The notes: a model not told the origin generated them from the letters alone. A stretch of DNA of 64,000 nucleotides from Euryarchaeota archaeon TMED117 (GCA_002171315.2 NHFS02000013.1:1062-65061), one strand, 5' to 3'; shown: positions 10,301 to 60,502, numbered from the stretch's first letter. Made by a program: numbers and translations.

Positions 10301-11726
10301 TTTCGAAGTTTGGGCGAGTGACAGTGATTATTGTGATGATGAGCAAGATATCTGTGTTATTCAAACAAGAACAGTGATCGTTGTAAATGATAACATCATT
10401 CCAATCGTCGATTTACTTGAGCCAGATGGTACAGAAACAGTTCGTGCAAGTACGAACACGACCTTGATTGGATTTGCAAGCGATGGTGCTGATGGAACGA
10501 TTACTCGTGTAGAAATTGTCATCACGGACCTTGCAAGTGGATTGATTCTCAACAATGGTCCTGGGCCTGTAACCGATTTCACTAAGACCGGGCCTGGATA
10601 TTCATGGACTGCATTGTGGGATACCAGTAAACTCGACCACGAAGGACAGTATGAAATAAGTGTCAAAGCCTACGATGGTGAAGATTATTCAGTTTCTGAC
10701 GTAGTTCGAATCACCATTGATAAGCCAACAGATGAGAACAATATCCCTCCACAATTCGACAGAACAAACTGGAAGAATACGGTTACAATCTTCTGTGTTA
10801 AGGATTCATCATCTGAAAACCAATGTGGCGGCGGCGCTTCTATTGATTTGAAGGAATTCTTCTCAGATCCCGATGGTGGATTTGATGAACTGAGTATCGA
10901 TTTCGTCGATGACCTAACAATCATTGACGACAATTTCCATCCCGTCTATGTCGTCATTGACAGTAATGGTGTTGCCAGATACGATCCAGCAACATCGCGA
11001 ACAGATGAAGCAATTGAGGAATGGACTCTTGAAAACGTTCGTTTCGTTGTTCGAGATACTCAAGATTCAGTAATTTACTCAGAGGGTGTTACATTCTTTG
11101 TTCAATCGATTGAATTCAATGCTCAAAGAATGGATGCTGGTGAGTCTGTTACTGCCAATGATCCTGCAGTCTTTAACGGAACTGGATTGCCTGGAAGCAG
11201 AATTGAAGCACGTACTGTTTCGAGTTCAACATTCGTAAAATCTGTTGTTGTAGGTGACAATGGTATCTGGTCGATGGAACTTACCTTGCAAGACATGAAT
11301 GATGCTTCAAATGAAATCAAGTTTGAAATGGATGGCCAAACCTTCGGAGGTACAAACGATCCAACTGCATTCAATGTCGCAGTTGGTGCTGATGATGATG
11401 GCGGTAATCTAATCCTCATCATCGGATTGGTCATTGCAGCTCTTGTTCTACTTGGGGCGATTGGATTCTTCTTTATTGAACTTGAAGATATTGAAGATGA
11501 GGCATTTGAAACTGAAAATCAACAAGTCGTTGAAGAAGATCCATATGCATGGGGTCGTAAAGACGTCGCAGAGATTCCTGCAGCACAGCAACCTCAACAG
11601 GTTGTTCAACAACCAGAAGCTCAGCCTGAGGCGGCTCAAGCCTCTGCTCAGCACCCTGGATGGCTGTGGGACCAAGAATCAAATCAATGGGTCCCTGATC
11701 CAAATTACCAACCACCTTCACAATAA
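7386..11726 (+). CDS. giant surface protein: signal peptide, parallel beta-helix (PbH1) repeats, Ig-like modules, C-terminal TM anchor and Trp-rich tail
   Basis: N-terminal signal-like VGLVGLLLTSLLMGLMTVPAVSA. PbH1-type repeats include LYVDNNQITTGDGAGITAYDGSIISATGNTISGAAQGSGFGIRDS, VEIENNTVTNTAKEPIKVG and IVGNTVTGNAGDGIRIKGSIVNVQDNII. There is a Cys-bounded acidic motif CSDGYDNDGDTYVDDEDTDC (9522-9581). The TM helix LILIIGLVIAALVLLGAIGFFFI is followed by an acidic segment, a Gln/Pro-rich segment and then HPGWLWDQESNQWVPDPNY. Confidence 0.85.
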   Translation: MRFTNTGKSVGLVGLLLTSLLMGLMTVPAVSAVNETSNGTITTTETWSGTHTVTGDVTVAEGAKLVINAGTTVNIKAGAFIEVEGAICAGSASCGASQASASSPVRFNWASPADTSVVGRCSVQGNNLLNNPDAACGSGVIIRNTINQASTGLSFVQFDKAYGTPVYVTSLQVFKYAALIFDGSSLTADNLGFSDINTTNVIAIDLAAPSIRDSTFTLGIDGLGYNGPGVEAFSAGAGILSKFSITGSEFTGDADASCEDGISLIYSEDSFIELDNLDIKDNAQGVFLRGSSGSFGNSTLDVKCNGIDTNSHKMTGDYSHTLYVDNNQITTGDGAGITAYDGSIISATGNTISGAAQGSGFGIRDSAVSAHQNTIGPITGYNGFWVFGNSDVEIENNTVTNTAKEPIKVGEYLYQDSGSNYPSPSPNRAYIANNIVANNTGVCNSVWMYGGDFQCPAIHIFMASATIVGNTVTGNAGDGIRIKGSIVNVQDNIIEAGQFAANISHFDNKYGSKFGSIGYFSGNTWTNATQIYNISESRVTVQSEYIPDAQGGYTHPVMLSWQGAECPYVQSECLLLPDTSIMPPRDMPLAIELVNNSTVFSFADLQNFDATKVHVQNQNSAWGTQVREGELVRYQVKAKNSNVAGATVIIKDATGLPIYELTTDEFGFTQQVSLPSDFLLDRNWNHFVGESDVTIPGALDDDGNPIVVTEDTCSDGYDNDGDTYVDDEDTDCVNGRELPFYIVEAYKFNKGKKDFNFVLSGPVDDIINLDNLRPGVTIEQYDGDSFAINAVITGSAWDGQLGGQTDYLAYQLQFGLVDRVEIQPPGSSDWYYAVDTSGANGELTKENHPFKSWSFQWDLSAHPEGESDVTFRIRSYDGLDYSPVEVRKFKLNLVPPTLYLNEPLDGSTHTNGNILFTGTASDPYSGTWGSDIQDVWFDVTGPNGYSSHFAIDGSVAWAYQWNFDELESGEYHFEVWASDSDYCDDEQDICVIQTRTVIVVNDNIIPIVDLLEPDGTETVRASTNTTLIGFASDGADGTITRVEIVITDLASGLILNNGPGPVTDFTKTGPGYSWTALWDTSKLDHEGQYEISVKAYDGEDYSVSDVVRITIDKPTDENNIPPQFDRTNWKNTVTIFCVKDSSSENQCGGGASIDLKEFFSDPDGGFDELSIDFVDDLTIIDDNFHPVYVVIDSNGVARYDPATSRTDEAIEEWTLENVRFVVRDTQDSVIYSEGVTFFVQSIEFNAQRMDAGESVTANDPAVFNGTGLPGSRIEARTVSSSTFVKSVVVGDNGIWSMELTLQDMNDASNEIKFEMDGQTFGGTNDPTAFNVAVGADDDGGNLILIIGLVIAALVLLGAIGFFFIELEDIEDEAFETENQQVVEEDPYAWGRKDVAEIPAAQQPQQVVQQPEAQPEAAQASAQHPGWLWDQESNQWVPDPNYQPPSQ
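11652..11708 (+). other. C-terminal Trp-rich tail motif (variant): HPGWLWDQESNQWVPDPNY
   Basis: It lies within the last 24 residues of the 7386-11726 product, after the TM helix and a Q/P-rich linker. It resembles the tails at 30095-30148 and 60425-60478. Confidence 0.6.
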
Positions 11727-24808: not shown

Positions 24809-27800
24809 ATGAGTGGTAACTTTGTCTCGAGGCGAACCCTGGCAGCCCTGCTACTTTCTCTCTTCATTGGCATGAGTATGTCTCCGTTGAGTGAACTCTG
24901 GATTGAAAATGCAGAGGCTGCAGAAGTAGCACGACATACCTACGAGTTTAGTGATGGGACGACCGAATACATTGCACTCTATCAAGGTGGAAATGCAGAC
25001 AGTGGTGCTAAAATTTCACTGCCAAAGGGGGCAGAAGTTACAGATGTTCAAATGACATTATCAGGTGCATCTGCTACAGGTTGGTCTTCAATTCCAACAA
25101 CAACTCGTGATCATTGGGTTGCCGGTGAAGCATCCAATACGGATAACAAGAGTTCAGATTTGACTCTCGCTATGGCAAACGTTAGTCAGGCATTCAATGC
25201 ACACAGTATCGATGAGGCAGTCAACCCTTCCAGCACAGCTTGGTTGGATAATGGAACTTACGCAGTTCGTCAACCCCATACCTCAAATTCAACCGATGCA
25301 CTCTTTTCTCAACAGCGGAAATTGACACCTAATTCTTTGAATGCCCAAGGTCAAGGAGCAATCCTCCGTCATCATGATTGGTTGTACTTATCGACTTGGT
25401 CCTCCACTTCCTTCCACAATATAGTGCATCGCCTGTATCCAAACAATGGTACACGGGAAAGCATCATTACACTCGATCAAAATGGATGTACTTTGCCTTC
25501 AAAACATTCTTCCTCTTACTATGGACAATGGGGTTTCAGAGACTGGGTAGTAACTGATGATGAGCGTTTGTTCGCCGTACTATCTGGGTACAAATATTTC
25601 TACACTTCAACTGCAAACACAATGTATCATCGTGTTATTGAATTTGATATTTCAAACGAGAACGAATGGGTTTGTTTAAATTCATTCCAACCTCAAGGGA
25701 ACGGAGATTATACCGGAATCACCTACGACCCTGTCGACGATAAAATCTGGATTTTGCATAATCAAAATCGAAGGATACAATCCTATCAGTTGGATGACAG
25801 TGGAAATCTCGAGCGAGGAGATAAACACTTCACCTTCCAAACTTCATCATCCTCTATTTGGCAATGTGGTGTTAGTAATCAACAAGCACGTGGCTTAGAA
25901 ATGAATGAAACACATTTCTTCATGCGATGTCAAGATGGACAATATTACAACGACAGAGATCAACTGGAAGCTTGGGGCCGCTCGGGAACAGCAACCGCAT
26001 TGATTCCAGAGAATTCAATCCGCAGTATTTCTTCTCTTGGTTATGGCCTCTTCTATGATGGTCAGCGTTTCCTTACAGTCGATTCAGGTTATTCAACATG
26101 GTCAAGCACACCATCTTATCATGAATTTGGAACAAGTTGGCAATACAAAACGACTCCAGCACCGGGTACTACGACATGGTTTGGTCCCGTTATCACTACT
26201 GCGGAAGATGTACTTTCAGTGAATATGGAAACTCTTTGGTCAGCTGCATCCATCGGTGATCGGGTTGATTATTGGGTATCTGCCGATAATGGTACGCACT
26301 GGGTTCAAGTCGAATCAAATACGACTGTTCATTTCCAACACCCTGGCACGGAACTCGTTTGGAAAGCAACACTGATTGGTTCTACTGCTGTTTCTTGGTG
26401 GGTTGATTTAGAGTACTCAACAGAATATGAGACGAGTGGGACATGGATTTCACCTGCGAAGCCTACGGGCACAAAGGTAGGTAAAGTTCGACCCCAATGG
26501 ACTGCATTCCAAGATCCTTCTACTACGCTTACCGTTCAGGTTTCAAATGATGATGGAACCACGTGGCAACCCGCAGAGAATATGGTTGAAACCAGTTTCT
26601 CAACAGATGGAGCTGGTAATCTCCTACGTTATGCTGTTACGATGACTACGACTGATCCTTACATTACGCCAGTACTGGATAGTTTGGAACTCTTCTATGA
26701 GGAAGGCTATCCAGATAAGCCCAAAATTGATGTTGGATATGATGGAGTATATGATTGGAAGAGTATTCTTTTCCTAAATGAGTCTTCAATTAATGTCAAT
26801 GATGATTCTGTTGTTGGGGAAGATGTTGAATTCCAGCCAACACTTGTTGATGCCTTTAACGACTTTATTCCTGATAACGGTGATGGGTTTGTTGAAGTGC
26901 CGCTTGCAATTAAAGCACAGACCTCTGGTCGTGTAAAAATCACCAACATTGATGTATCCTACAAGATGAATACTCACGCAATCAATGCAGTATTTGAGGG
27001 TGGAATGGCAGCTCCAGATGGTATTGCTCGAAACCTCATCATCAAGGTTGCACATGGTGATGAAGTAAATTACGTGACTGAAGTCATTGCAGCACTCAAT
27101 AATTCACATGGACAAAATCCTTCATTCAAGTGGCAACAAGGTGACACCTGTTCCACTCTTGATGATGCAGGTGGAATTGTATACTTCGATGTCTCGAATT
27201 GTTCATCTTCAATCGATAGCAATGATGTAAGAACCATTCGAATTCCAATAACTGTTGACTGGTCTTGGGATGATGAACAATCGACTGAGGCAATTCTTAC
27301 AGTCAAAGATTCCTTTGGAACTGCTGTGAGTAATTGGGATACTGAGAATATGGAACTTCGTGTTGAAAATGACATTCAACTGGATGGATTGCAAGTATTC
27401 GATGAAGATGGACGGCAGTTATTCACTCAAGATTGGGTTCGAGGAGGGCAAAATATTTCCTTCCTAGGAAAAATCCACTTTGAATCATCTCAACTCTCTC
27501 CTTTGGCAGGAGAGTTTGAATTGCGTGTCCTTGGACAAAATGTAACATTCGATGGTGATCCAATAGGACAACCTATTGTTTTGGCTCAGGAAGCGAACCC
27601 GAGTTTTGGATCTTACAATCTCACCTTCGTATCACCGATTGAATCCGCACCAGGCGGGATGATTTTCTACGTAGAAGCAATTAATCTTCCAAATGGTTCT
27701 GAATATTCAAATCCAGGATACAATACAATTCGTTTGATTCTTGATGGTAATTCACCTCTGGTAATTGCAGCCACTCCGTTTGATGGGCAAGAACGTCATG

Positions 27801-30169
27801 TTGGTCCACCTGCACCTGGTGGGCAAAGTATTACGGTGAATATTCAAGATAGTGTAGATCCGCCAACACAGCTTACTTTCCATTATTGGATTGGATGCAA
27901 ATCAACGGTTGCTTTAGGTTGTCATGATTTCAACTTTGATGGCTTGCCTCAAGAAGATGAATATACTGAGAAGACCTTCTCATCTCCAGAGACAATCACT
28001 GGTGGGCTGAATATTTTTAGTGGCCTTATTGATGATTCAATGTTGACTCACGGGCAATTCGTCTCATTCTTTGTTACTGGTAAGGATTCACAACAAAATC
28101 AGGTCGCAATGGGTGGCGGTCCAGTCTGTCCACCAACCCCGCAAATTTGTGGTTATGCGCCAGGCCAAGTCATGCCAAGTTGGGATGCTGATCTCTCCAC
28201 TTACCAAATACGTCAAGAATTTGAACCAGAAGTGGATTTGACAAATTCAAGTATCGTTGGGCATGATGATGAGGACCCTCTCCATCCTGGTGTGATGTAT
28301 ACTGCTCAGGTTGTTCTTTCCGATCGTAACGGGTGGGATGATATTCAATTTGTTCAATTCGCCCTTGGTGAAGATGTGAATGACGAGGAAACTTCAATCT
28401 TCATACAACTTCAAGAAGACGAGAATGGAATGCCAAAGGCTCATCTCGAATCAGGTGGAGAATACATTGCAGTCTCGAACCTCTACTCTGAAATTTCGAC
28501 CTTTGAAGGCAATGCAAGCCAACTTTTGATCCGTGCAAGGTTCCAATTGACTTGGTCCTTCCCAGAATCCTTTGATACCGATGGAGAAACGCTCTTTATT
28601 CCTGTTTTACGTGTTACTGATAAACCATGTAATGAAGGCGAAGAGACACCTTGTTTCACAAAGATTTCAGGTCTTGGAAACGATGCATGGAGTCTTGATA
28701 ATGACTTTAGATTCGATACTGAATCAGGACACATCAAAGCCGTAGAACTTCGTGATGGTACAAATCATTACAACGATGAAGTCGAAGAGACTCTCATAGG
28801 ATCTGGACAAGCTCTACGAGTTACTGGACGTGTCTTGTTTAGCGAAGATGAAACACCTGCGCCACCAGGCGCTTTCGATGTTGTCTTTGGGGATTTCGAC
28901 CACGTTTGGAAAACGTCACCTCGCCAAAATGGTGAATTCAGTTTAGATCTCTTGGTGCCATCCGTCAACAGTGGCCATCTTGACCTTCGACTGCAATTAT
29001 CTGATTTACCTGGTCTTGCAATGGATGAAACAGATCCACTACCTCGTGTTCGTTTGGCTGTTGACAGTTCAAACCCATCCATTCAAACAGTCATGCTGAA
29101 TGAAGTTCCTGCTGGTTCTCCGATTTCTATTGGTGAAGCAAATTCGTTACTTGTCATGCTTGAAACAGTCGATGATAATGGATTTGACCTCGACCGACCT
29201 GCGGTACTTCACTACAGAATACGTGCTGGTGAAGCAGAAATCTCCCGTGGTGCCTCAGCTCTTCCAGAAACACTTCCATTTGGTGACCAATTTTTCTGGA
29301 CAGGTAGTATTGACTTGACTGATATGGGAGCAACGACATTGTTACCATCTTACGTCGTAGATGTCTGGGTATCTGGTTCAGATGCTTCTGGAAATCCATT
29401 TGTTACGCTAAACAATAATGTTGCAGAACCCTTTGCATCGTGGCCGTTAGCTCTCCTTGGACCTAGCATTTCTTTCGATGATGAAGATACATCTATTCAA
29501 TGGAGTAATCCAAGCCCAGTCCAAGGTTCATCATCAGAACTTGAAATTAGTGTGGCAAATAAAGGTGGAAAAGGAGAACTTTCCTTCATTCTTCAACGAC
29601 TTGTAGAGGGCGGTAATTGGAACGCGGAATCAAATACGACCATTCCTGTTGCTGCAGGCCTTAGTGCATCGGTTTCTCTGCCGATTATCGCAGAAGTCGG
29701 ACCTGGTGAATCTCAGGAATACAGGCTCCTGGTTACAGTCGATGGGGTTGAAATGGATCGAATGACAGTTGATCCACTCATTGTAAAGAAAGAGACTATT
29801 CGCGATGGAGATGCTCTTGCGGAACAAGCTGGTGAGAGTCAGTTTGCAATTTTCATGTACATAGTCGCCATTGGATCACTCTCGGCATTCCTATGGATGC
29901 TTGTGATGTATCGGAAGATGAAGTACGGAGATGAAGAATTCGAATCTGACCAAACTGATGTCGTAGTCGAAGAAATGGAAGCAAAGATTGTGCCTCAAAT
30001 CGATATTCCACAACCTACAGAACCAGTTGCTCTACCAGCACCAATACCTGCAGTTTCAACAGATGCTAGGGGTATTGCGCCTTTACCTCCAACTGGCTTA
30101 CCCGAGGGATGGACGCAAGAACAATGGAACCATTTTGGTTGGCAATACATCGATTCATTCAAACTGTGA
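24809..30169 (+). CDS. giant surface protein: signal peptide, large ectodomain of unrecognised folds, C-terminal TM anchor and Trp-rich tail
   Basis: 1786-codon ORF. The signal-like N-terminus is RRTLAALLLSLFIGMSMSPLSELWIENAEA. The C-terminal TM helix is FAIFMYIVAIGSLSAFLWMLVMY. It is followed by an acidic stretch, a Pro-rich linker and GLPEGWTQEQWNHFGWQYIDSFKL at the end. The ATG lies 49 nt after the preceding stop. Confidence 0.85.
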   Translation: MSGNFVSRRTLAALLLSLFIGMSMSPLSELWIENAEAAEVARHTYEFSDGTTEYIALYQGGNADSGAKISLPKGAEVTDVQMTLSGASATGWSSIPTTTRDHWVAGEASNTDNKSSDLTLAMANVSQAFNAHSIDEAVNPSSTAWLDNGTYAVRQPHTSNSTDALFSQQRKLTPNSLNAQGQGAILRHHDWLYLSTWSSTSFHNIVHRLYPNNGTRESIITLDQNGCTLPSKHSSSYYGQWGFRDWVVTDDERLFAVLSGYKYFYTSTANTMYHRVIEFDISNENEWVCLNSFQPQGNGDYTGITYDPVDDKIWILHNQNRRIQSYQLDDSGNLERGDKHFTFQTSSSSIWQCGVSNQQARGLEMNETHFFMRCQDGQYYNDRDQLEAWGRSGTATALIPENSIRSISSLGYGLFYDGQRFLTVDSGYSTWSSTPSYHEFGTSWQYKTTPAPGTTTWFGPVITTAEDVLSVNMETLWSAASIGDRVDYWVSADNGTHWVQVESNTTVHFQHPGTELVWKATLIGSTAVSWWVDLEYSTEYETSGTWISPAKPTGTKVGKVRPQWTAFQDPSTTLTVQVSNDDGTTWQPAENMVETSFSTDGAGNLLRYAVTMTTTDPYITPVLDSLELFYEEGYPDKPKIDVGYDGVYDWKSILFLNESSINVNDDSVVGEDVEFQPTLVDAFNDFIPDNGDGFVEVPLAIKAQTSGRVKITNIDVSYKMNTHAINAVFEGGMAAPDGIARNLIIKVAHGDEVNYVTEVIAALNNSHGQNPSFKWQQGDTCSTLDDAGGIVYFDVSNCSSSIDSNDVRTIRIPITVDWSWDDEQSTEAILTVKDSFGTAVSNWDTENMELRVENDIQLDGLQVFDEDGRQLFTQDWVRGGQNISFLGKIHFESSQLSPLAGEFELRVLGQNVTFDGDPIGQPIVLAQEANPSFGSYNLTFVSPIESAPGGMIFYVEAINLPNGSEYSNPGYNTIRLILDGNSPLVIAATPFDGQERHVGPPAPGGQSITVNIQDSVDPPTQLTFHYWIGCKSTVALGCHDFNFDGLPQEDEYTEKTFSSPETITGGLNIFSGLIDDSMLTHGQFVSFFVTGKDSQQNQVAMGGGPVCPPTPQICGYAPGQVMPSWDADLSTYQIRQEFEPEVDLTNSSIVGHDDEDPLHPGVMYTAQVVLSDRNGWDDIQFVQFALGEDVNDEETSIFIQLQEDENGMPKAHLESGGEYIAVSNLYSEISTFEGNASQLLIRARFQLTWSFPESFDTDGETLFIPVLRVTDKPCNEGEETPCFTKISGLGNDAWSLDNDFRFDTESGHIKAVELRDGTNHYNDEVEETLIGSGQALRVTGRVLFSEDETPAPPGAFDVVFGDFDHVWKTSPRQNGEFSLDLLVPSVNSGHLDLRLQLSDLPGLAMDETDPLPRVRLAVDSSNPSIQTVMLNEVPAGSPISIGEANSLLVMLETVDDNGFDLDRPAVLHYRIRAGEAEISRGASALPETLPFGDQFFWTGSIDLTDMGATTLLPSYVVDVWVSGSDASGNPFVTLNNNVAEPFASWPLALLGPSISFDDEDTSIQWSNPSPVQGSSSELEISVANKGGKGELSFILQRLVEGGNWNAESNTTIPVAAGLSASVSLPIIAEVGPGESQEYRLLVTVDGVEMDRMTVDPLIVKKETIRDGDALAEQAGESQFAIFMYIVAIGSLSAFLWMLVMYRKMKYGDEEFESDQTDVVVEEMEAKIVPQIDIPQPTEPVALPAPIPAVSTDARGIAPLPPTGLPEGWTQEQWNHFGWQYIDSFKL
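30095..30148 (+). other. C-terminal Trp-rich tail motif: GLPEGWTQEQWNHFGWQY
   Basis: It ends 6 residues before the C-terminus of the 24809-30169 product. It matches GLPDGWTMEQWNHYGEQY at 60425-60478 at 14 of 18 residues. The two loci share the identical 16-mer GAACAATGGAACCATT (30119-30134 and 60449-60464) and the identical 8-mer GGATGGAC (30107-30114 and 60437-60444). Confidence 0.75.
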
Positions 30170-30178
30170 GGCGCTCGT

Positions 30179-30619
30179 ATGTCTGACTCTGATGCTATGG
30201 TTACGCTGCAAGAGCGTATGGTGAATCTCATTGGTCAACTAACGATGCCTGTGGTGGAAGTTGCTCTCGTTTTACAACATCACATCCATGGTATGATGAT
30301 TTCATTAACGCAACACGTCGCCCAATCTGGAGGTCAATTAAACGATAAGGTTGCGAATCCGTGGCCAATCGTATCTCCAGATGAGAGCATTGATTCGCAA
30401 ATAGGATTTGATGTTGAGAAAGTTCTGAAGATTGTTGATCAAGATCGAATGGATATTCTCTCAACCCTGATAAGAGTCACACTTATCGAGACTGAAATGA
30501 ATCTCATAGAAGGAATTCTTGCTCTACGATCTTGGGAACAACTTGTGCGTCAACAACTTGCAGATGCAAATGGTCCAGGCCAACTCTTTTCACCCATAGA
30601 TTTGCCAGAGGAATGGTGA
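30179..30619 (+). CDS. hypothetical small soluble protein (146 aa)
   Basis: The ATG lies 9 nt after the stop of the giant gene. There is no hydrophobic segment long enough for a TM helix. The protein ends in PIDLPEEW. I recognise no family. Confidence 0.6.
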   Translation: MSDSDAMVTLQERMVNLIGQLTMPVVEVALVLQHHIHGMMISLTQHVAQSGGQLNDKVANPWPIVSPDESIDSQIGFDVEKVLKIVDQDRMDILSTLIRVTLIETEMNLIEGILALRSWEQLVRQQLADANGPGQLFSPIDLPEEW

Positions 30620-34469: not shown

Positions 34470-35417
34470 ATGTCTGGAGTTCATGCTATGACGACAAGGA
34501 AAACGACAGCAATAGGATTGTTTCTGTTGCCCCTTTTTGTCATGGCAAGTTTGCAAGTTGTAGTTGATCCACTCGGGGACATAATCGCATTAAGTTGGAT
34601 TTATTTTGCCATCTGGTATGGACTTGGGGCTTTGATTGGATTTATACTCTTCAAACGAACTCAAGTCACCAAAGATCATGAATATCGACGATTTGAAATC
34701 ATGAAGAAGATGAAGAATGTTTACGAAGCTGAATCCAAGGGTGTTTGGGAAAAAGATGTTGAACTAAATCCTGATGTGACTCTCAACAAAGATGCTCTTA
34801 ATTCAACCATAGGAACGTTTGACAGAGAAGCCCCGGAACTACAGGTGGAGGAAGATGAGCCGTCAGAAGTACGTCTTCTCACCGAGCAAGGATTTGTGCA
34901 AAAAGCGACAAACCGATTATCTGGTAAAACAGATTTTGATGGAGAAGAGATAGATTCTACTGTTGGTTCAATTCGTAAGAAAAGTTGGATGGATGGCGTC
35001 ATTGACAGTATCTATGGCTTCTTTGGCAGGGATACAGAAGCAGAGCGTGAAGAAAAGAGAATGCAACGCTTGCATTCCAATGCTCAACAATCTCCTGTTG
35101 TGGCACAGCGACCTATAGCACCGATTCAGAAGGTCAAGGGTTCTTCTGAGACCAATTCAAAGGACTCAGGAACAATGACATCGATGAGCGATGATGGTGG
35201 GATTATATCTTCAATCGAAGTTGAGAGTAAAGAATTACCAACAATACCGAGTACACCCAGTCAATCGATTGAATCAATGGCTATGCTTGGAAATAGTCAA
35301 CCCTCGTCGGTTGTGATTCAGCCATCTGGATCGAGTCTCGTTTGCTCCAGTTGCGGATTTAGTAATCCTCCTGGTGAGCGTTATTGTCAATCTTGTGGAA
35401 GCACTCTTTCATCCTAA
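34470..35417 (+). CDS. membrane protein with a disordered cytoplasmic region and a C-terminal zinc ribbon
   Basis: There are two N-terminal TM helices (AIGLFLLPLFVMASLQVVV and WIYFAIWYGLGALIGFILF), then a charged low-complexity middle region. The C-terminus is CSSCGFSNPPGERYCQSCG (CxxC-x10-CxxC). Confidence 0.7.
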   Translation: MSGVHAMTTRKTTAIGLFLLPLFVMASLQVVVDPLGDIIALSWIYFAIWYGLGALIGFILFKRTQVTKDHEYRRFEIMKKMKNVYEAESKGVWEKDVELNPDVTLNKDALNSTIGTFDREAPELQVEEDEPSEVRLLTEQGFVQKATNRLSGKTDFDGEEIDSTVGSIRKKSWMDGVIDSIYGFFGRDTEAEREEKRMQRLHSNAQQSPVVAQRPIAPIQKVKGSSETNSKDSGTMTSMSDDGGIISSIEVESKELPTIPSTPSQSIESMAMLGNSQPSSVVIQPSGSSLVCSSCGFSNPPGERYCQSCGSTLSS

Positions 35418-36600: not shown

Positions 36601-38823
36601 TTATTCCTCTTCTGATAATCGAGAAAGAGTTGCAGGAATTCTCATTCCCCTTGGTTTCCCATCAACATGACCGTTCAATTCGATATCAACCTGGGCTCCG
36701 TCTCCTTTGAGTTCAACTGTTAGGAAAATCATGGTTCCTTTTGCAATTGAATCCACAAAGATTTCTTCACCTTGATGGAGCAATCGTGGCTCAACATTGG
36801 TTACTTCCCATGGACTTCCATGAGGGGCCTCAAATCTGAATGCTGAAACTTCCCATGTCTCTTCTGGTGTGTGGAGGCCAATCAATAATGGCCAATTTCC
36901 TTCGGTTTTGGATAGACGTTGATCAAGTTTCCAAATTGCGAGCGATGTACCTTGCGTCGAATATGTCCTGTCAGGAACACCCCATGATTCGCAAGCAGAT
37001 TGCCACGGAAGTGTGGCCACCGCTTCGAGGGATTTGACAAGTGTTTTTCTTGTCTGTTTTGGAGTCTCTGTGCCACTATCAAGTAACTCACTAAGTATCT
37101 TCAATCGTTCTCGAACTGCTCCTAATCGGCGTCCTTCATTGCGAGTGGATTTTATTTTGTAGAGTAAAAATAATGCGGGAAGAATCATTGTGATTCCAAG
37201 AATCCATCGTATGGCTGATCCCCATAGTTTCGCTTCATCTGAAGGTGGGAACCACGGTTCCTCCCCTTCTTCTATTGTTACCTTCGTTGCAGTTATGGTG
37301 TAAGATACGCTTTGTAAGTCATTACTCCACGTTTGGTTTGTAAGGATGCTTTCGTTCTTGTGGGAGAACACAATCAGATGCATTCCTGGTCCAACATTCA
37401 GATAAACCTCTCCTTCATTGGAAAACGAATCAAAGTCGATATTGTATTCCGATTTAGTATCAAAACTCTCTTGGTCAAGTTCCCAGACAGTTGCTAATAG
37501 GTTCTGATCAGATGTTCGTATCACGATGTGAATGCGATGCAATGAATCTACCCAACCGTCGACAGACAAGAGGTAAACATCCGTTTTGTCCATTGCTGCC
37601 AATGTTAAACTCCCTTGGAAATCCTCAGTACTCTCGCTAGATAAAATAGGCCATGTGGCAGTATTCTCTGGTTCACCGGGCATAAAACTCGGAGCATCTA
37701 CACTTAGATTCCCGTCTGAAAACGATCCGATTGAAACATCAACCCAATGAACATCTGAAGTAATTTTCAACATTGCCATCGTCGAATTTGGATAAGCATA
37801 AACTCGTTGAATCCTATTTTTTTGGATTTCAATTTCAGGCATAGTGATCCAATTTTCACCTATTTTTACAGATAATTCGGCTTTGATATCCTCGACCATT
37901 GGGGCTATTTTCACATAATTTGTTTCATCGAAACTAAAAGCTGATTGTGATGTCATGTGACCTATCTGTGTGAATGTGAGCGTACTGTCATCGATCTGTT
38001 GTGTGAGAGACTTTGAATGAATTGCGCGCTGTAGTGCATATGCTGAATTTGTAGCAGTTGTTGAAATCTTGACGATCAATCTACCATCTTCAACAATTTC
38101 GATGTATTCTGTTAAAGCTAAGAGGTCAGGGTTGATACCAGTTGCAGACTCGATAACAAGTGGAATTGGGGATTCAACTGTTGCATTTTGGAAGAAGAAA
38201 TCAAACCGTATTTGATTGGATGTGTGGTGGAGTTTGAATTCAATGAGGTCGCCTTCTAGGGCTTCTATTCCCCAATATTCTGGTGCATCAGAGCGAACCA
38301 AACCAGATTCAAACCAAGTAGTAGAGTAGGCTCCAGAAGAGATTGTATTCAAGTTTCCACGGTGCACATCCACGCATTCTGTTGACGATGCGCAACGACC
38401 ATTGGTGTCCAGTGTGAAGTTTTCCTCAGGAGAGGGTCGTTGAGAGGGGTGTTGAGAGTCAGCAGTGATAAGAATCGATGTGGTTATGGTCTCGGTTTCT
38501 GGAGATGAGATTGAAACATTGGCTAAGCCAGTTCCAGTAGCAACGTGGGTTGCAATTGACGCAGACGTTATTGTTGTGCCGTTTTCCTCAATTGAAACCG
38601 AGCAAAAATCACATCCGACGGCAACTGAAATTACATCTCCAACAGAAACGGATTCAGTGAAATCATAACTTGTGGCAGAATTTAATGTAATCATCTGTAC
38701 TCTTTCATCGATGATGAAGACCGTAGGAGATTCATCGGCAAGTGTACTCGTAGGGAGTTGACAAAGCAGAAGAATAGCCAACAGAATTAGACCAGTTCTA
38801 TGGCGTGTGTTCTGACCTCCCAT
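36601..38823 (-). CDS. bitopic membrane protein: signal peptide, ectodomain of about 520 aa, one TM helix, cytoplasmic domain of about 190 aa
   Basis: I prefer the start at M21 (MGGQNTRHRTGLILLAILLLCQLPTSTLA, ATG 38823) over the ORF-track start at 38883. The TM helix is AIRWILGITMILPALFLLY, followed by KIKSTRNEGRR and a non-repetitive C-terminal domain. I recognise no family. Confidence 0.7.
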   Translation of the reverse strand: MGGQNTRHRTGLILLAILLLCQLPTSTLADESPTVFIIDERVQMITLNSATSYDFTESVSVGDVISVAVGCDFCSVSIEENGTTITSASIATHVATGTGLANVSISSPETETITTSILITADSQHPSQRPSPEENFTLDTNGRCASSTECVDVHRGNLNTISSGAYSTTWFESGLVRSDAPEYWGIEALEGDLIEFKLHHTSNQIRFDFFFQNATVESPIPLVIESATGINPDLLALTEYIEIVEDGRLIVKISTTATNSAYALQRAIHSKSLTQQIDDSTLTFTQIGHMTSQSAFSFDETNYVKIAPMVEDIKAELSVKIGENWITMPEIEIQKNRIQRVYAYPNSTMAMLKITSDVHWVDVSIGSFSDGNLSVDAPSFMPGEPENTATWPILSSESTEDFQGSLTLAAMDKTDVYLLSVDGWVDSLHRIHIVIRTSDQNLLATVWELDQESFDTKSEYNIDFDSFSNEGEVYLNVGPGMHLIVFSHKNESILTNQTWSNDLQSVSYTITATKVTIEEGEEPWFPPSDEAKLWGSAIRWILGITMILPALFLLYKIKSTRNEGRRLGAVRERLKILSELLDSGTETPKQTRKTLVKSLEAVATLPWQSACESWGVPDRTYSTQGTSLAIWKLDQRLSKTEGNWPLLIGLHTPEETWEVSAFRFEAPHGSPWEVTNVEPRLLHQGEEIFVDSIAKGTMIFLTVELKGDGAQVDIELNGHVDGKPRGMRIPATLSRLSEEE

Positions 38824-38907
38824 GGAATAGGGTCTGACCTCTACTCTTTGAACACTTTCTTTTTCATGAGTAACACCCTTCAAGAAGCAGAGTACTCAGG
38901 AGTGACT

Positions 38908-42521: not shown

Positions 42522-42599
42522 ATCAAAAATCATACCAACTCCTCACAGACGAGCGTTGATGTTATACGCTTGTTGTTCAGCCATACATTTGGGGATAGA

Positions 42600-50003: not shown

Positions 50004-50094
50004 GTCTGTGCTATGACCTATGGGATTTGAAGCACACGGCAAGATGTTCACATCAATTCCAAAGTAATATGAATCAAAATTGATAGGGCCGTTT

Positions 50095-58600: not shown

Positions 58601-60502
58601 GGTGTTCGAAACACAGGTAATTCTGCAGCACAATATCTGATGTCTTGTACATCTTCATCCCAATGGCAAATTATGTTAGGTAACTCAAATTCATCATCGC
58701 TTGAATTTGAACCACTCAACATCCTTCAAGATTTGAGCATGGATGTGAACGTATTCATACCATCAATCGCTAATGGGGAGCCTGTTGCTGGGTCAACAGA
58801 TCAGGTAACTTGTGTCGTCACATCTCCTACAGATCCAACTCTCAATCGTGTCGAAGTTGTTGATGTTGCAGTTTCGGAACTCAAAGCCTTCCGTTCTGAC
58901 CTTTATGGTCCAGATGGAGCTGTAGGGCCAGGGGCATTGGCTCAACCTGTTGTGGCAAATACAGGAGAATTGGTGTACTTCAATCATACAATCCAAAACA
59001 TGGGGAACGTTCCTCTGGATTTTGCAGTGACCATTGAGCGTGGGAATCCAACCTGGGCAGCTGAAATACAATTTGGTCAAGAGAGTAGTTCATCAGCACT
59101 TTCAGTCACACTATCTCCGGGTCAGTCTGGCGATGTCGAGATGCGATTATTGGTTCCAGAAACAGCTCGAGAAGGCAATTCAAACACATACACGCTCAGG
59201 GTTGAATCATCTCCTCAGATGTTTACTTTGAATTCCACCTCAATTATCGTTGGTGAAAATTTAGATGTAAATTTAATGCCAAATGGTGGGACACTCATCA
59301 CAGTTCCAATTGAAAATTCTTTCACATTCGCGGAGTTTATCGTTGAAAATACAGGAAACGCAGACTTGGATTTAGACTGGTCCACAAGCCTAGCTCCAGA
59401 TGGTTGGTCGATTGGATATTCGAATCCACCAAGTTCGGTGCCAGTGCTTAAGAACGCTTCAGTTCAACTAGCAATCCAAGCCCCAAATCAAACAATATCT
59501 GGATTTGGATTTGATTTACAATTGTTCGTTAATGCTAGCAATAATGGTCGATACACGAATGCCGAAATCCTTGTCAGAGTCGAAGTTTCAGATTCAAGTT
59601 TTGCAGCAATTCGTGTTTCAGATGAATTATCAGCACCATTGTTGTTTATTCCTCGCGGAGACTCAGCAAAGCAGTCAATTACGATTACAAACGAAGGAAA
59701 TATTCCTTTAACGGGTGATTTGACAGTTGAAGTTCGCGATAATGAAGGCGCTGTCCTTACCGATCGAACTGCAAGCATTTCGCCATCTTCAATTAGCGGC
59801 CTTGCAATAGGTGAGTCAGTGGAAGTTGTTGGTAAAGTTTCAACCAAAGACAATTCAGTGGATGGCCGAATGAACTTAGTGGTTATCTTAACAACCTCGG
59901 ATGGTGTTGTTATCGAATTCATGGCAGATACAAGTGTAAGCTCTCAGAAATCTTCTGGAGGCATTTTCGGGACTCTTCCTGCGTATGTTTCTTACCCTCT
60001 TGTTCTGTTGGCTTTGCTTGGGCTTCTCTACGGTGGTCGTAAATTAAAACAAAGCAGTAAGATGGATGATTATGGAACGGATTTAGTTGCACCGGATGCA
60101 CACACAGATGCTGACCACCTCGGTACAAGACGTGATGAGGCGCTTGACATCAGTCATTCAGTCAATGACATAGCCTCTGGTGAAGTCTCCCAAGATGAAA
60201 TCGCTGCAGCCTTAGCTCAGTCACTGAATATGCCGGCACCTGTGGGGAACGCTCCTGTTCCAGAAGGGCGCCCCCCAGCAGGACTTCCTCCAAAGGGATT
60301 GCCGCCAGCAGGACTTCCTCCTGCCGGTTTACCTCTTGTGCAAAGACAACCAGCACCTGCCAAGGTTATTCCACAATTGCCAGTACCAGTTCCTGTAGCC
60401 TCAGGTCCTCCACTACCACCTGGTGGTTTGCCAGATGGATGGACCATGGAACAATGGAACCATTATGGAGAACAATATCTTCAGCGCATGGGTTTGAACT
60501 GA
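55643..60502 (+). CDS. giant surface subtilisin-like protease (peptidase S8) with a beta-sandwich post-catalytic domain, an array of CARDB-like domains, a TM anchor and a Trp-rich tail
   Basis: The signal peptide is MHLKRRSFILLSVFLLSLASPLASSHS. The triad contexts are IAVMDTGVDNNHPDL (Asp), SGHGTHVAMTVLG (His) and LSGTSQATAVAGGSAALAREY (Ser). The subtilase-associated domain reads TLAWSDAEASAN...NNLDLILIAPDGTTYLGN...NNIERIRIP...GDWMVTVEH. CARDB-like repeats include WHNQGTLASGPYRI, VRNTGNSAAQYLM, IQNMGNVPLDFAV, VENTGNADLDLDW and ITNEGNIPLTGDL. The TM helix is YPLVLLALLGLLYGG. The tail ends in GLPDGWTMEQWNHYGEQYLQRMGLN. Confidence 0.9.
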   Translation: MHLKRRSFILLSVFLLSLASPLASSHSVVESKSSQAMVYSSSWDSITPVSKQVILTNPIEPVIDLASFSFDPLLNDLELIPSTWRADSENNLHLLQLNVNNGAIVEAMADEFDFSILETHGSAVWTIRLNNLDHYDSINSHDDVRWIGEYSPGMKLGTHVFGATIVQIVLSNDLSPDALALFSATLAEEGANIAWCSQDMCEAHYEAGITNQQIKSLAFHQHVLFIDGSFTLSLHNNLAATEVGAVAVRAPSSLNLDGSGETIAVMDTGVDNNHPDLVGRVAAINTQFGLDSSPIDSNSGHGTHVAMTVLGDGTGDAIATGIAPAANLVMYALEHDPTGVFGRQGSIYDLLSDAELKTARVAVNAWGLNGNYGAYTADSRSTDQYVSNNKYLLPIFSVGDNGGTGASKITAPGTAKNVLSIGSSVNGTVSTDSSEGPTLDGRIKPDLVAPGEGICSARAEEAKNVVGSVCGTGTHSNGRSMYMELSGTSQATAVAGGSAALAREYLREVAGINKPSASLIKAILINGAEDLGTPDIPNAKEGWGQIDLENSLNPSSSGVALDVFHDDERELQAGFSLIYAFNLDGSKGIDITLAWSDAEASANAAQSESRLMNNLDLILIAPDGTTYLGNHFSSGVSTTGGSADVLNNIERIRIPAGATTQTGDWMVTVEHRGGSSQRYGIIVTADATLIPKADLTTFSNSILPSSLTPLVGDLVSISLAWHNQGTLASGPYRIQFEDVTSGSILYDSNRTSLEGGSLDSVSFFTQFSTTGIHKLRLSLDTSNQVLELNDGINGIDNNIIELDIEVTAQGLRVIFQNPDGSIPTTSQDRDSAASVTMDVRNETGLSLPFVIAHEGTGERPVSLTVSSVQQPDPTYPTLLLAPEDSWSKSVNQTGVFTISGQGEENDTIYLTLNLDDTSASFDGATKRYARAGSFIVDVTARYQNQPTVSHTQRLYIEIGQVDSVDVVPSGTSGVSAKPGERTGFSIGVRNTGNSAAQYLMSCTSSSQWQIMLGNSNSSSLEFEPLNILQDLSMDVNVFIPSIANGEPVAGSTDQVTCVVTSPTDPTLNRVEVVDVAVSELKAFRSDLYGPDGAVGPGALAQPVVANTGELVYFNHTIQNMGNVPLDFAVTIERGNPTWAAEIQFGQESSSSALSVTLSPGQSGDVEMRLLVPETAREGNSNTYTLRVESSPQMFTLNSTSIIVGENLDVNLMPNGGTLITVPIENSFTFAEFIVENTGNADLDLDWSTSLAPDGWSIGYSNPPSSVPVLKNASVQLAIQAPNQTISGFGFDLQLFVNASNNGRYTNAEILVRVEVSDSSFAAIRVSDELSAPLLFIPRGDSAKQSITITNEGNIPLTGDLTVEVRDNEGAVLTDRTASISPSSISGLAIGESVEVVGKVSTKDNSVDGRMNLVVILTTSDGVVIEFMADTSVSSQKSSGGIFGTLPAYVSYPLVLLALLGLLYGGRKLKQSSKMDDYGTDLVAPDAHTDADHLGTRRDEALDISHSVNDIASGEVSQDEIAAALAQSLNMPAPVGNAPVPEGRPPAGLPPKGLPPAGLPPAGLPLVQRQPAPAKVIPQLPVPVPVASGPPLPPGGLPDGWTMEQWNHYGEQYLQRMGLN
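60275..60321 (+). repeat. short in-frame tandem repeat encoding (P)AGLPP(K/A)GLPPAGLPPAGLP in the tail of the giant protease
   Basis: The 17-mer CCAGCAGGACTTCCTCC occurs at 60275-60291 and again at 60305-60321, a 30-nt period. The peptide reads PPAGLPPKGLPPAGLPPAGLP. Confidence 0.8.
60425..60478 (+). other. C-terminal Trp-rich tail motif: GLPDGWTMEQWNHYGEQY
   Basis: It ends 7 residues before the C-terminus of the 55643-60502 product, after the TM helix and a Pro-rich linker. See 30095-30148 for the near-identical copy. Confidence 0.75.

What the first reader, a model, noticed from the sequence alone, without database searches (positions are those of the whole stretch)
30095..30148. Shared extreme C-terminal Trp-rich motif on three unrelated giant surface proteins (candidate cytoplasmic docking or sorting module)
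Three giant proteins have unrelated ectodomains: beta-helix (7386-11726), unknown folds (24809-30169) and S8 protease (55643-60502). All three end with the same architecture:
- a single TM helix
- an acidic stretch
- a Pro/Gln-rich linker
- a terminal Trp-rich motif

The motifs are GLPEGWTQEQWNHFGWQY (30095-30148), GLPDGWTMEQWNHYGEQY (60425-60478) and the looser HPGWLWDQESNQWVPDPNY (11652-11708). Two copies share 14 of 18 residues and an identical 16-nt core, GAACAATGGAACCATT.

With an N-terminal signal peptide and one TM helix, the motif is predicted to lie in the cytoplasm. It starts like a WW domain (LPxGW) and is reminiscent of GW/DUF2510-type Trp repeats, but it is too short to be either. 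It does not resemble the known archaeal PGF-CTERM/archaeosortase signals; those are cleaved TM signals, whereas this motif lies beyond the TM helix.

Other anchored proteins in the window (2-5944, 47574-50003, 36601-38823) lack it, so it marks a subset. It could tether surface enzymes or adhesins to an intracellular partner, direct their secretion or localisation, or transmit signals inward.
Basis: partly seen in the sequence, partly recalled or inferred. Interest (0 to 1): 0.7.

Follow-up and report, generated by a model that had tools for sequence, protein, structure and literature searches.

The report
Shared cytoplasmic tail module, marine archaea
Many unrelated cell-surface proteins of the abundant, uncultured Marine Group II archaea carry the same unnamed ~26-residue tryptophan-rich module at their inward-facing end, which most likely plugs them into a common, still unidentified partner inside the cell.

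Summary
Two giant proteins (24809-30169 and 55643-60502) end in one conserved module, here motif A: PPLPxxGLPxGW[TS]MEQWx[HY]YGxQ[YW]L[DE].

- **Spread.** A profile of motif A finds 602 protein clusters. A DNA pattern finds at least 119 genome loci, almost all in Poseidoniales (Marine Group II).
- **Hosts.** It sits on at least 9 unrelated ectodomain families.
- **Position.** It lies 32-155 residues after a single membrane helix that is followed by an Arg/Lys cluster. In type II proteins it sits at the N-terminus. It therefore marks the cytoplasmic end, not the C-terminus as such.
- **Third tail.** The tail of 7386-11726 is not motif A. It is a separate, equally conserved motif B (HPGWLWDxxxNQWVPDPNY), predicted to form a beta-hairpin. 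A and B replace each other on homologous ectodomains in three independent families, so they are probably functional alternatives.
- **Known families.** Nothing matches in Pfam or NCBIfam. Nothing in the PDB sequence search is significant, and Foldseek against PDB finds nothing. No literature match was found. It is not a WW domain and not a PGF-CTERM signal.
- **Function.** The best reading is a membrane-tethered docking mini-domain for a shared cytoplasmic partner. That function is inferred, and no partner was found.

The parts
30077..30166 (+). Motif A, copy 1 (APLPPTGLPEGWTQEQWNHFGWQYID + SFKL). It is the cytoplasmic C-terminal module of the 1786-aa protein 24809-30169.
   Evidence: Translation. 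Family HMM 60.5 bits. DNA pattern hit at 30101-30138. Orthologues L040, L100, L048 and L009 keep the same tail.
29849..29905 (+). Single membrane helix (IFMYIVAIGSLSAFLWMLV) of protein 24809-30169. It is followed by MYRKMKYG.
   Evidence: Hydropathy 2.22. A basic cluster directly follows the helix.
29906..30076 (+). Tail linker of protein 24809-30169: a basic cluster, then an acidic stretch, then a Pro-rich stretch.
   Evidence: Sequence. The same layout occurs in 114 related loci.
60407..60499 (+). Motif A, copy 2 (PPLPPGGLPDGWTMEQWNHYGEQYLQ + RMGLN). It is the cytoplasmic C-terminal module of the 1619-aa S8 peptidase 55643-60502.
   Evidence: Translation. HMM 62.5 bits. Pattern hit at 60431-60468. 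AlphaFold2 model with pLDDT 84-90 over the motif.
59963..60037 (+). Membrane helix region (IFGTLPAYVSYPLVLLALLGLLYGG) of the S8 peptidase. It is followed by RKLKQSSK.
   Evidence: Hydropathy 1.8. Sequence.
60038..60406 (+). Tail linker of the S8 peptidase. It holds a family-specific conserved stretch (LVAPDAH...EIAAALAQS) and (G)LPP(A/K) repeats.
   Evidence: Sequence. The same stretch occurs in P0018 and P0258-P0260.
11652..11708 (+). Motif B (HPGWLWDQESNQWVPDPNY). It is the cytoplasmic C-terminal module of the 1446-aa beta-helix protein 7386-11726 and is distinct from motif A.
   Evidence: Near-invariant in 95 homologues. 120 metagenome loci. AlphaFold2 beta-hairpin with pLDDT 81-86. Not visible among the motif A HMM hits.
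11538..11561 (+). Second conserved tail element of the beta-helix family (DPYAWGRK).
   Evidence: D, P, Y, A and W are invariant in alignment A3 (sequences).
11409..11465 (+). Membrane helix (LILIIGLVIAALVLLGAIG) of the beta-helix protein.
   Evidence: Hydropathy 3.05.

Best explanation
Motif A is an autonomous mini-domain of about 26-30 residues: a Pro-rich PPLPxxGLPxG segment followed by a Trp/Tyr-rich amphipathic helix. It hangs on a flexible acidic and Pro-rich linker of 30-155 residues at the cytoplasmic end of single-pass surface proteins of Poseidoniales. It most likely acts as a common handle that a conserved cytoplasmic or inner-membrane-face partner recognises. That would let proteases, Ig/PKD/CARDB binding proteins, beta-propellers and other ectodomains be retained, co-localised or coupled to an internal scaffold. 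Motif B, a Trp-zipper-like beta-hairpin, is an alternative handle for the same role.

Shown:
- conservation of the module;
- modularity across unrelated hosts;
- placement on the cytoplasmic side;
- A/B interchange on homologous ectodomains.

Inferred:
- that the module binds a partner, and which partner;
- the fold, which is a prediction only.
For: 1. Real and widespread.
- 602 clusters at E<=1e-3 among 1.84 billion representatives.
- At least 119 genome loci, against about 1 expected by my own chance estimate. Almost all are labelled Poseidoniales or carry older names for such MAGs, and both families of the order are represented.

2. Modular.
- At least 9 unrelated ectodomain clusters. They include S8 peptidase, CARDB/Ig, PKD, TSP3 repeats, RCC1 plus ephrin-receptor-like repeats, and WD40-like propellers.

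3. Cytoplasmic.
- 114 of 121 hits have a strong membrane helix 32-155 aa upstream; 5 of the other 7 are cut by the locus edge.
- K+R counts are 2.9 in the 15 aa after the helix against 0.47 before it, higher after in 104 of 112 cases. 58 of 60 complete hosts have a signal-like N-terminus.
- In a type II family of about 255 aa (P0135, P0249-P0254), and in the SAP-domain protein of L050, the motif is N-terminal to the membrane helix.

4. Mini-domain rather than a loose motif.
- Positions that the search pattern did not force are 76-99% conserved: P-10, P-9, L-8, P-7, G-4, L-3, M3, Q12, Y/W13, L14.
- The flanking linker positions have entropy above 2.8 bits.
- The variable positions 7, 11, 15 and 18 form one helical stripe.
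- T/S/D at the predicted helix N-cap.
- AlphaFold2 gives pLDDT 87-90 over the motif and a helix at residues 23-37.

5. A and B swap on homologous ectodomains in three families.

6. The conserved polar residues E4, Q5, Q12 and D/E15, and the absence of conserved Lys/Arg, fit specific recognition better than lipid binding.
Against: - No partner was identified. The neighbourhood analysis of the 119 motif A genome loci gave no neighbour family shared across host families.
- No binding test was possible, because the tools fold single chains only.
- The fold rests on one AlphaFold2 run of a 40-residue peptide (pTM 0.51) and has no structural neighbour in the PDB.
- A and B are predicted to fold differently (helix versus hairpin). 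A single shared pocket is therefore not obvious; there could be two partners.
- Topology comes from hydropathy and the positive-inside rule, not from a dedicated predictor or an experiment.
Confidence: 0.45

Rival explanations
1. Self-association module. The aromatic helix (A) or hairpin (B) of one tail binds the PPLP/Pro-rich linker of neighbouring tails, or the modules dimerise. Surface proteins would then cluster from the inside without any separate partner.
For: - An invariant PPLP and a Pro-rich linker lie immediately upstream of the aromatic element.
- The weak best PDB sequence similarity is to WW domains, which read PPLP/PPxY; the top match is a Salvador homolog 1 (SAV1) WW domain. That this SAV1 WW domain homodimerises is from my own memory, not from a tool.
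- Motif B is a WW-like two-strand hairpin.
- Several carriers can lie side by side in the genome: 2 in this window, and 2 within 8 kb in each of L034, L071 and L077.
Against: - The PDB matches are not significant (E 0.07-0.3).
- AlphaFold2 places the PPLP segment confidently within the same chain (pLDDT 87). That suggests intramolecular packing.
- No oligomer prediction was possible.
Confidence: 0.15
2. Recognition tag for a biogenesis or turnover factor, such as an insertase or chaperone, a membrane protease (LonB or FtsH-like) or a quality-control system. In this reading it is not a localisation scaffold.
For: - The position is terminal in 110 of 121 genome hits and about 80% of database hits.
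- It is carried by very large exported proteins that would need supervised assembly.
- It is lineage-wide.
Against: - A free C-terminus is not required. Extensions of 30-650 aa and N-terminal placement occur.
- Most other anchored proteins in the same genomes lack it.
- Its extreme conservation and predicted fold are more than most degrons need.
Confidence: 0.15
3. Membrane-interface anchor. The Trp/Tyr-rich amphipathic element folds back onto the cytoplasmic leaflet as a second, in-plane anchor.
For: - Trp- and Tyr-rich segments favour membrane interfaces (general knowledge).
- The variable positions form a single stripe on the predicted helix, so it has one exposed face.
- Both A and B are Trp-rich although their folds differ.
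Against: - No Lys/Arg is conserved. Instead E4 and D/E15 are conserved, as are Q5 and Q12.
- My hand calculation on the Wimley-White interfacial scale gives only about -0.4 (A) and -1.2 (B) kcal/mol. This is not a tool result.
- The module sits at the far end of a long acidic linker (median 73.5 aa).
- The invariant PPLPxxGLPxG has no role in this model.
Confidence: 0.1
4. Degenerate WW-type reader. A and B are truncated relatives of WW domains and themselves bind Pro-rich ligands on cytoplasmic proteins.
For: - The GLPxGW start, 8 residues from W to G, and then Y-hydrophobic-D match the SAV1 WW domain spacing.
- By my own reading, B resembles WW strands 2-3 (aromatic-x-aromatic-D/N ... QW-x-P).
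- B-like repeats score 19.5 bits on DUF2510.
Against: - The Pfam WW model gives no hit even at E<=10.
- The second Trp is 5 residues away, not 20-22.
- There is no third strand. A is predicted helical.
- The PDB matches are not significant.
Confidence: 0.08
5. Nascent-chain (ribosome-arrest) element that pauses translation near the stop codon until the membrane helix has integrated.
For: - It contains Pro-Pro and Pro-Gly runs and Trp residues, and lies near the stop codon in most carriers. Arrest peptides such as SecM share these traits (own knowledge).
Against: - N-terminal copies exist in type II proteins.
- The distance to the stop codon is variable.
- The conservation pattern has helical periodicity, and the predicted fold is confident.
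Confidence: 0.03

Closest known systems
WW domain (Pfam PF00397), in particular the Salvador homolog 1 (SAV1) WW domain
   Same: - Starts with GLPxGW.
- Has the same 8-residue W-to-G spacing, followed by Y-hydrophobic-D.
- WW domains are the best, though insignificant, PDB sequence matches.
   Different: - No Pfam hit.
- The second Trp is at +5, not +20-22.
- There is no third strand and no W-x-x-P.
- It is predicted helical.
- It is about 26 aa long, not 35-40.
PP-fold peptides (pancreatic polypeptide, NPY) and the Trp-cage miniprotein
   Same: The predicted order of elements is the same: a Pro-rich non-regular segment packed next to a short aromatic amphipathic helix, in about 30 residues (the comparison is from my own knowledge).
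   Different: - No sequence or Foldseek match.
- Those are secreted hormones or designed peptides, not membrane-tethered tails.
- The packing could not be inspected, because no coordinates were returned.
C-terminal sorting signals of prokaryotes (PGF-CTERM/archaeosortase A, PEP-CTERM, LPXTG)
   Same: A short conserved terminal element shared by many unrelated surface proteins of one lineage.
   Different: - Those signals are motif, then membrane helix, then a short basic tail. They are cleaved, with the motif on the outer side.
- Here the order is membrane helix, basic cluster, a linker of 30-155 aa, then the motif on the inner side.
- No NCBIfam model matches.
Cytoplasmic tails of apicomplexan TRAP/MIC2 adhesins and other eukaryotic receptor tails (functional analogy only)
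   Same: A type I surface protein with an acidic cytoplasmic tail that ends in a conserved Trp-containing element. In TRAP this element links the adhesin to an internal machine (own knowledge).
   Different: - No homology.
- The archaeal partner is unknown.
- The archaeal module is longer and is predicted to fold.
DUF2510 (Pfam PF10708)
   Same: The B-like tandem hairpins (SPDGxYxWDGTKWxP) at the N-terminus of type II orthologues score 19.5 bits, E 8e-4.
   Different: - The score is below the gathering score of 24.
- The window's motif B and motif A give no hit.
- The function of DUF2510 is itself unknown, and no paper in the held library mentions it.
Cohesin-dockerin assembly of cellulosomes (functional analogy only)
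   Same: One small docking module appended to many different enzymes and binding proteins, which would gather them on a scaffold.
   Different: Dockerins are extracellular, Ca-binding and about 70 aa long. Here the module is cytoplasmic and no scaffold is known.

Membership tests
WW domain (PF00397) | Matches the family profile | tested here: not met
   No Pfam hit for any of the three tails at E<=10. The profile search of PDB gives WW domains only at E 0.07-0.33.
WW domain (PF00397) | Two signature Trp 20-22 residues apart, with a Pro three residues after the second | tested here: not met
   The invariant Trp residues are 5 apart (W1, W6). No W-x-x-P follows, and the chain ends 12-18 residues after W6.
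WW domain (PF00397) | Three-stranded antiparallel sheet | tested here: not met
   AlphaFold2 predicts a helix at residues 23-37 for motif A and only two strands for motif B. These are predictions, not structures.
PGF-CTERM / archaeosortase-type sorting signal | Matches a curated NCBIfam/TIGRFAM sorting-signal model | tested here: not met
   The NCBIfam scan of the tails gave no relevant hit at E<=10.
PGF-CTERM / archaeosortase-type sorting signal | Tripartite order: motif, then membrane helix, then a short basic tail at the extreme C-terminus | tested here: not met
   The order here is membrane helix, basic cluster, 32-155 aa linker, motif.
DUF2510 (PF10708) | Profile score at or above the gathering score of 24 bits | tested here: not met
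   The window tails give no hit. B-like repeats of P0255 give 19.5 bits as an isolated 50-aa segment and 14.6 bits in the full protein.
PP-fold (pancreatic hormone family) | Profile match, or structural match of a PPII helix packed on an alpha-helix | tested here: inconclusive
   No Pfam hit and no Foldseek match in PDB. The predicted order of secondary-structure elements is compatible.
GW domain (SH3-like, about 80 aa, Listeria InlB type) | A domain of about 80 residues that matches the profile | tested here: not met
   The module is about 26 residues and gives no Pfam hit.
Proposed new family: Poseidoniales cytoplasmic tail motif A | PPLPxxGLPxGW[TS]MEQWx[HY]YGxQ[YW]L on the cytoplasmic side of a single membrane helix | tested here: met
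   Both window copies score 60-62 bits on the family HMM and have the membrane helix plus basic cluster upstream.

The most novel reading that the evidence does not exclude
Motifs A and B, together with the SAP and zinc-ribbon tails seen alongside them, are the visible half of an undescribed archaeal system. In it, the surface proteome of Marine Group II cells is physically coupled, through modular cytoplasmic tails, to an internal scaffold such as a cytoskeletal element, the nucleoid or a membrane-associated lattice. This would be a prokaryotic counterpart of eukaryotic adhesion-receptor tails. A and B would be alternative plugs for the same socket.
Probability: 0.3. Interest if true: 0.85.

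Novelty: new variant of a known kind. Interest (0 to 1): 0.68.

Why it matters
Marine Group II archaea are among the most abundant surface-ocean archaea and have never been cultured. [quoted passage not shown]

- **A census tag.** The module is a simple sequence tag for listing a large part of that surface proteome in metagenomes (602 clusters so far).
- **An unknown component.** It implies an unknown intracellular component that handles or organises these proteins.
- **An unusual layout.** Known prokaryotic sorting signals sit outside or within the membrane and are cleaved. A conserved, folded, swappable module on the cytoplasmic side of single-pass proteins is not among the sorting signals I compared it with, and it resembles the logic of eukaryotic receptor tails.
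- **A practical bait.** The peptide is short enough to synthesise, so the partner can be fished out directly.

Tried and rejected
- **Pfam and NCBIfam on the isolated tails.** Nothing relevant.
- **Word-indexed protein search with a 42-aa tail.** Only 3 fragment hits, so too insensitive for a short motif. The exhaustive profile search was needed.
- **Foldseek of the motif A model against PDB.** No match.
- **PDB sequence-profile search.** Only insignificant WW and thymidylate synthase hits.
- **Treating the third tail as a diverged copy of motif A.** Rejected by the HMM.
- **Looking for a partner by conserved gene neighbourhood.** In the 119 motif A genome loci, neighbours follow each host family's own synteny. 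None is shared across host families.
  - 11734-14256 is an HTH-STAND-TPR regulator, also syntenic in L120.
  - 30179-30619 is conserved downstream of one host family only.
  - Neither could be tested for binding.
- **Viral contigs.** 0 hits with the narrow and the broad motif A pattern.
- **'Bacterial' MAG labels (L005, L041, L044, L069).** Their host ORFs cluster with Poseidoniales orthologues, so I read these as binning contamination.
- **Apparent soluble carriers.**
  - P0018 looks like a frameshifted S8 tail.
  - L106 is interrupted by masked N runs.
  - P0100 is a GLPHGF repeat artefact.
- **Literature.** No paper contains GWTMEQW or DUF2510, and a Marine Group II genomics paper checked does not mention tails or anchors.
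- **Model coordinates.** Not available, so the PPII-on-helix packing could not be verified.
Full report
**1. What is in the window**

ORF 24809-30169 (1786 aa) ends ...APLPPTGLPEGWTQEQWNHFGWQYIDSFKL. ORF 55643-60502 (1619 aa) ends ...PPLPPGGLPDGWTMEQWNHYGEQYLQRMGLN.
- The 18-residue cores share 14 residues.
- The DNA is 40/54 identical, and the 16-nt core occurs only at 30119 and 60449.
- A degenerate DNA pattern for the motif hits the window twice, against 0.00 expected in shuffles.

ORF 7386-11726 (1446 aa) ends ...SAQHPGWLWDQESNQWVPDPNYQPPSQ.

All three proteins have a signal-like hydrophobic N-terminus and one strong membrane helix 90-170 residues from the C-terminus, followed by an acidic and then Pro/Gln-rich stretch. 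Pfam confirms Beta_helix plus Big_7 for the first protein, nothing for the second, and Peptidase_S8 plus CARDB/Ig-like domains for the third. The window has 43.6% G+C. Its gene order matches Poseidoniales MAGs.

**2. Motif A is a large, lineage-wide family**

A five-sequence profile (A1) was searched exhaustively against 1.84 billion representative proteins. It found 602 clusters at E<=1e-3 and 67 at E<=1e-10.

A DNA pattern (P-x-G-W-[ST]-x-E-Q-W-x-x-[YF]-G) was scanned over one genome per species for 185,579 species.
- 115 loci are labelled Poseidoniales, Poseidoniaceae, Thalassarchaeaceae or older euryarchaeote names for such MAGs.
- The four loci with 'bacterial' labels carry ORFs that cluster with Poseidoniales orthologues. 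I read them as binning contamination.

Anchored on the invariant GW, the module reads P-P-L-P-x-x-G-L-P-x-G-W-[TS]-M-E-Q-W-x-[HY]-Y-G-x-Q-[YW]-L-[DE].
- In the profile-derived set, which is not constrained by my DNA pattern, P-10, P-9, L-8, P-7, G-4, L-3, P-2, Q5, Y9, G10, Q12, Y/W13 and L14 are 74-100% conserved.
- Linker positions upstream have entropies of 2.8-3.3 bits.

The unit under selection is therefore about 26 residues, not 18.

**3. It is modular**

The ectodomains upstream of motif A fall into at least 9 unrelated clusters. Representatives carry the following:
- Peptidase_S8;
- CARDB and Ig-like domains;
- PKD;
- thrombospondin type 3 repeats;
- RCC1 propellers with ephrin-receptor-like repeats;
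- a WD40-like propeller;
- several folds with no Pfam match.

Both window proteins are syntenic core orthologues whose tails are conserved across the order.

**4. It marks the cytoplasmic end, not the C-terminus as such**

- In 114 of 121 genome hits a strong membrane helix lies 32-155 residues upstream (median 73.5). Five of the seven exceptions are truncated by the locus edge.
- The 15 residues after that helix hold 2.9 Lys+Arg on average, against 0.47 before it. The count is higher after the helix in 104 of 112 cases.
- 58 of 60 complete hosts have a signal-like N-terminus.
- Among database hits with enough upstream sequence, 74 have the helix and one does not. That one is an apparent frameshift in an S8 tail.
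- The motif lies 18-25 residues from the stop in 110 of 121 genome hits. It lies 18-24 residues from the end in 119 of 149 database matches.

The exceptions are informative.
- A PKD-family subclass carries a 30-60-residue extension that ends in a second, acidic motif (...LLDDLDL/F).
- A family of type II proteins of about 255 aa (P0135, P0249-P0254) has motif A at residues ~10-35. A Pro-rich linker, Lys residues, the membrane helix and an ectodomain follow.
- In L050 a SAP domain (35.9 bits) and motif A precede the membrane helix and a 520-residue ectodomain.

A free C-terminus is therefore not required. Being on the inner side is the constant.

**5. The third tail is a different motif that does the same job**

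The family HMM for motif A scores only two window ORFs. The beta-helix protein does not appear in the visible part of the output, which ran down to about E 76 before it was cut.

Its tail is nevertheless almost invariant in 95 homologues: SQHPGWLWDxxxNQWVPDPNY, plus an upstream EDPYAW[AG]K.
- 114 loci have the motif within 15-24 residues of the stop.
- 112 have a membrane helix upstream.
- 93 of 97 ectodomains belong to the beta-helix family.

The remaining ectodomains are the key result, because A and B replace each other on homologous ectodomains in three independent families.
- **CxxCH family, about 360 aa.** It carries motif A in L003, L035, L065, L070, L103 and L118, and motif B in L157, L215 and L233. 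Identity is 32-37% over about 220 aa, E 1e-40 to 1e-51.
- **CARDB family, about 1190 aa.** It carries motif A in L012, L044, L082 and L101, and motif B in L160. Identity is 27-31% over about 1000 aa, E<=1e-103.
- **Type II family.** The more distant orthologues P0255-P0257 replace N-terminal motif A with two tandem B-like hairpins (SPDGxYxWDGTKWxP...DGFWMWNGNDWMPNPNQPP).

This is the strongest evidence that the two motifs are functional alternatives.

**6. Predicted structure**

For motif A, AlphaFold2 was run with a 63-sequence alignment.
- Mean pLDDT is 80, and 84-90 over residues 11-40. The PPLPPGGLPDGW segment is non-regular, and a helix spans M23-M37.
- Independent support for the helix comes from the sequences. 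T/S/D at the N-cap position and a single stripe of variable positions (7, 11, 15, 18) fit helical periodicity.
- The Pro-rich segment is placed confidently, and an invariant Gly sits on the aromatic face. Together these suggest a PP-fold or Trp-cage-like packing. No coordinates were available and Foldseek found nothing in PDB.

For motif B, AlphaFold2 gives a two-strand hairpin (GWLW / NQWV) with pLDDT 81-86.

**7. Comparison with known families**

- Pfam and NCBIfam give nothing for the tails.
- The best PDB sequence matches to the motif A profile are WW domains of Salvador homolog 1 and Itch, at E 0.07-0.33. They share GLPxGW, the W-to-G spacing and Y-hydrophobic-D. This is a lead only. The second signature Trp, the W-x-x-P and the third strand are absent, and the predicted structure is helical.
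- B-like repeats reach 19.5 bits on DUF2510, below the gathering score of 24.
- PGF-CTERM-type signals have the opposite order of elements.
- No paper in the held library contains the motif string or DUF2510. A Marine Group II genomics paper that I checked does not mention tails or anchors.

**8. Mechanism**

Shown:
- a conserved, probably folded, swappable module;
- its attachment through a flexible acidic/Pro-rich linker;
- its position at the inner end of many unrelated single-pass surface proteins.

Inferred: it is a handle recognised by a common cytoplasmic partner that retains, clusters or couples these proteins.

Points favouring specific recognition over lipid binding:
- the conserved Glu, Gln and Asp residues, with no conserved Lys/Arg;
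- the invariant Pro/Gly framework;
- the distance from the membrane.

Points against a degron or a C-terminal sorting signal:
- the N-terminal copies;
- the long extensions.

I could not find the partner. Neighbourhoods are uninformative, and viral contigs carry no copy. The neighbouring TPR-STAND regulator and the 146-aa protein are each tied to a single host family by synteny only.

The rival explanations are self-association through PPLP-aromatic contacts, a biogenesis or turnover tag, an in-plane membrane anchor, a degenerate WW-type reader, and a ribosome-arrest element. They are listed with their tests.

**9. Verdict**

The finding is real and statistically overwhelming, and the module is unnamed in the libraries and literature I searched. 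The 'three copies of one motif' claim becomes 'two copies of motif A plus one of an interchangeable motif B'. The function remains inferred.

Noticed in passing
window 42570-44642 (+) and 34470-35417 (+); loci L005, L008, L016, L028, L030, L085, L097: Other single-pass proteins end in a cytoplasmic zinc ribbon (CPxC...CPxC). Examples are ...INCPQCG...CTGCGRVIKIVA and CSSCG...CQSCG. In seven loci such a protein lies directly upstream of the ~1180-aa motif A family. Zinc ribbons therefore look like a third class of tail module.
   Followed up: partly
L050:1042-3465 (+) and L080:6851-7999 (-): SAP domains scoring above the Pfam gathering score sit on the cytoplasmic side of Poseidoniales membrane proteins. 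One is N-terminal, next to motif A, in L050 (35.9 bits). The other is at the very end of the tail of an S8 peptidase in L080 (52.1 bits). SAP domains usually bind nucleic acid, which hints at a link between surface proteins and the nucleoid.
   Followed up: partly
window 47574-50243 (-) C-terminus (...NDEFDL); P0036, P0063, P0074, P0077, P0085 and others; L025, L045, L068, L094: A recurrent acidic-hydrophobic extreme C-terminus (LLDDLDL/F, DLDLDF, GFGSMFD, DLPFDLFDD). It occurs on its own or as a second motif 30-60 aa after motif A. It resembles the C-terminal peptide of ribosomal stalk P proteins (own recollection) and was not investigated.
   Followed up: no
window 36601-38883 (-) and 61817-63538 (+); several loci (L018, L020, L075, L084, L115): Many membrane proteins end in a run of Glu, for example ...LSEEE, ...ASDGEE and ...GEEE. 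This may be another C-terminal signal, or it may be compositional.
   Followed up: no
L003:6633-7709, L066:1682-2989, L215, L157, L233: The small (~360-436 aa) host family that carries either motif A or motif B has a conserved CxxCH motif (C[AG]GSCHG) just after its signal peptide. This is the signature of a c-type haem site, so it may be an extracellular monohaem protein in Marine Group II. It has no Pfam match.
   Followed up: no
window 2-5944 (+), compared with L120:1-1152: The window's first ORF is cut at its 5' end. In the syntenic locus L120 the corresponding 2041-aa gene carries an STT3 domain (the family of oligosaccharyltransferase AglB) fused to a large CarboxypepD_reg-containing C-terminal region with a membrane anchor.
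   Followed up: partly
window 11734-14256 (+): This is an HTH (Crp-like) plus STAND ATPase (AAA_16) plus TPR regulator. It starts 8 bp after the motif B beta-helix gene, and the adjacency is kept in the divergent locus L120. It may be a signalling pair or plain synteny.
   Followed up: partly
window 14720-16909 (-) and 16906-17946 (-): Two adjacent genes have archaeal type IV pilin-like N-termini (short charged leader, then a hydrophobic helix). The L120 orthologue of the second has a weak DUF7289 hit.
   Followed up: no
L216 and L236 (metagenome contigs): Motif B-like strings (QQHPGWLWDYGSGQWVPDP and QQYPGWLWDGAAQQWVPDP) occur in Gln/Gly/Glu-rich ORFs that do not resemble Poseidoniales proteins. 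A PGWLWD...QWVPDP hairpin may therefore exist outside this order.
   Followed up: no
P0249-P0257 membrane helix (for example residues ~92-150): The membrane helix of the type II family gives weak, sub-threshold hits to the archaeal type IV pilin N-terminal domain (Pilin_N, E 0.0015-0.17). If real, motif A would sit on an unusually long pilin-like leader.
   Followed up: no
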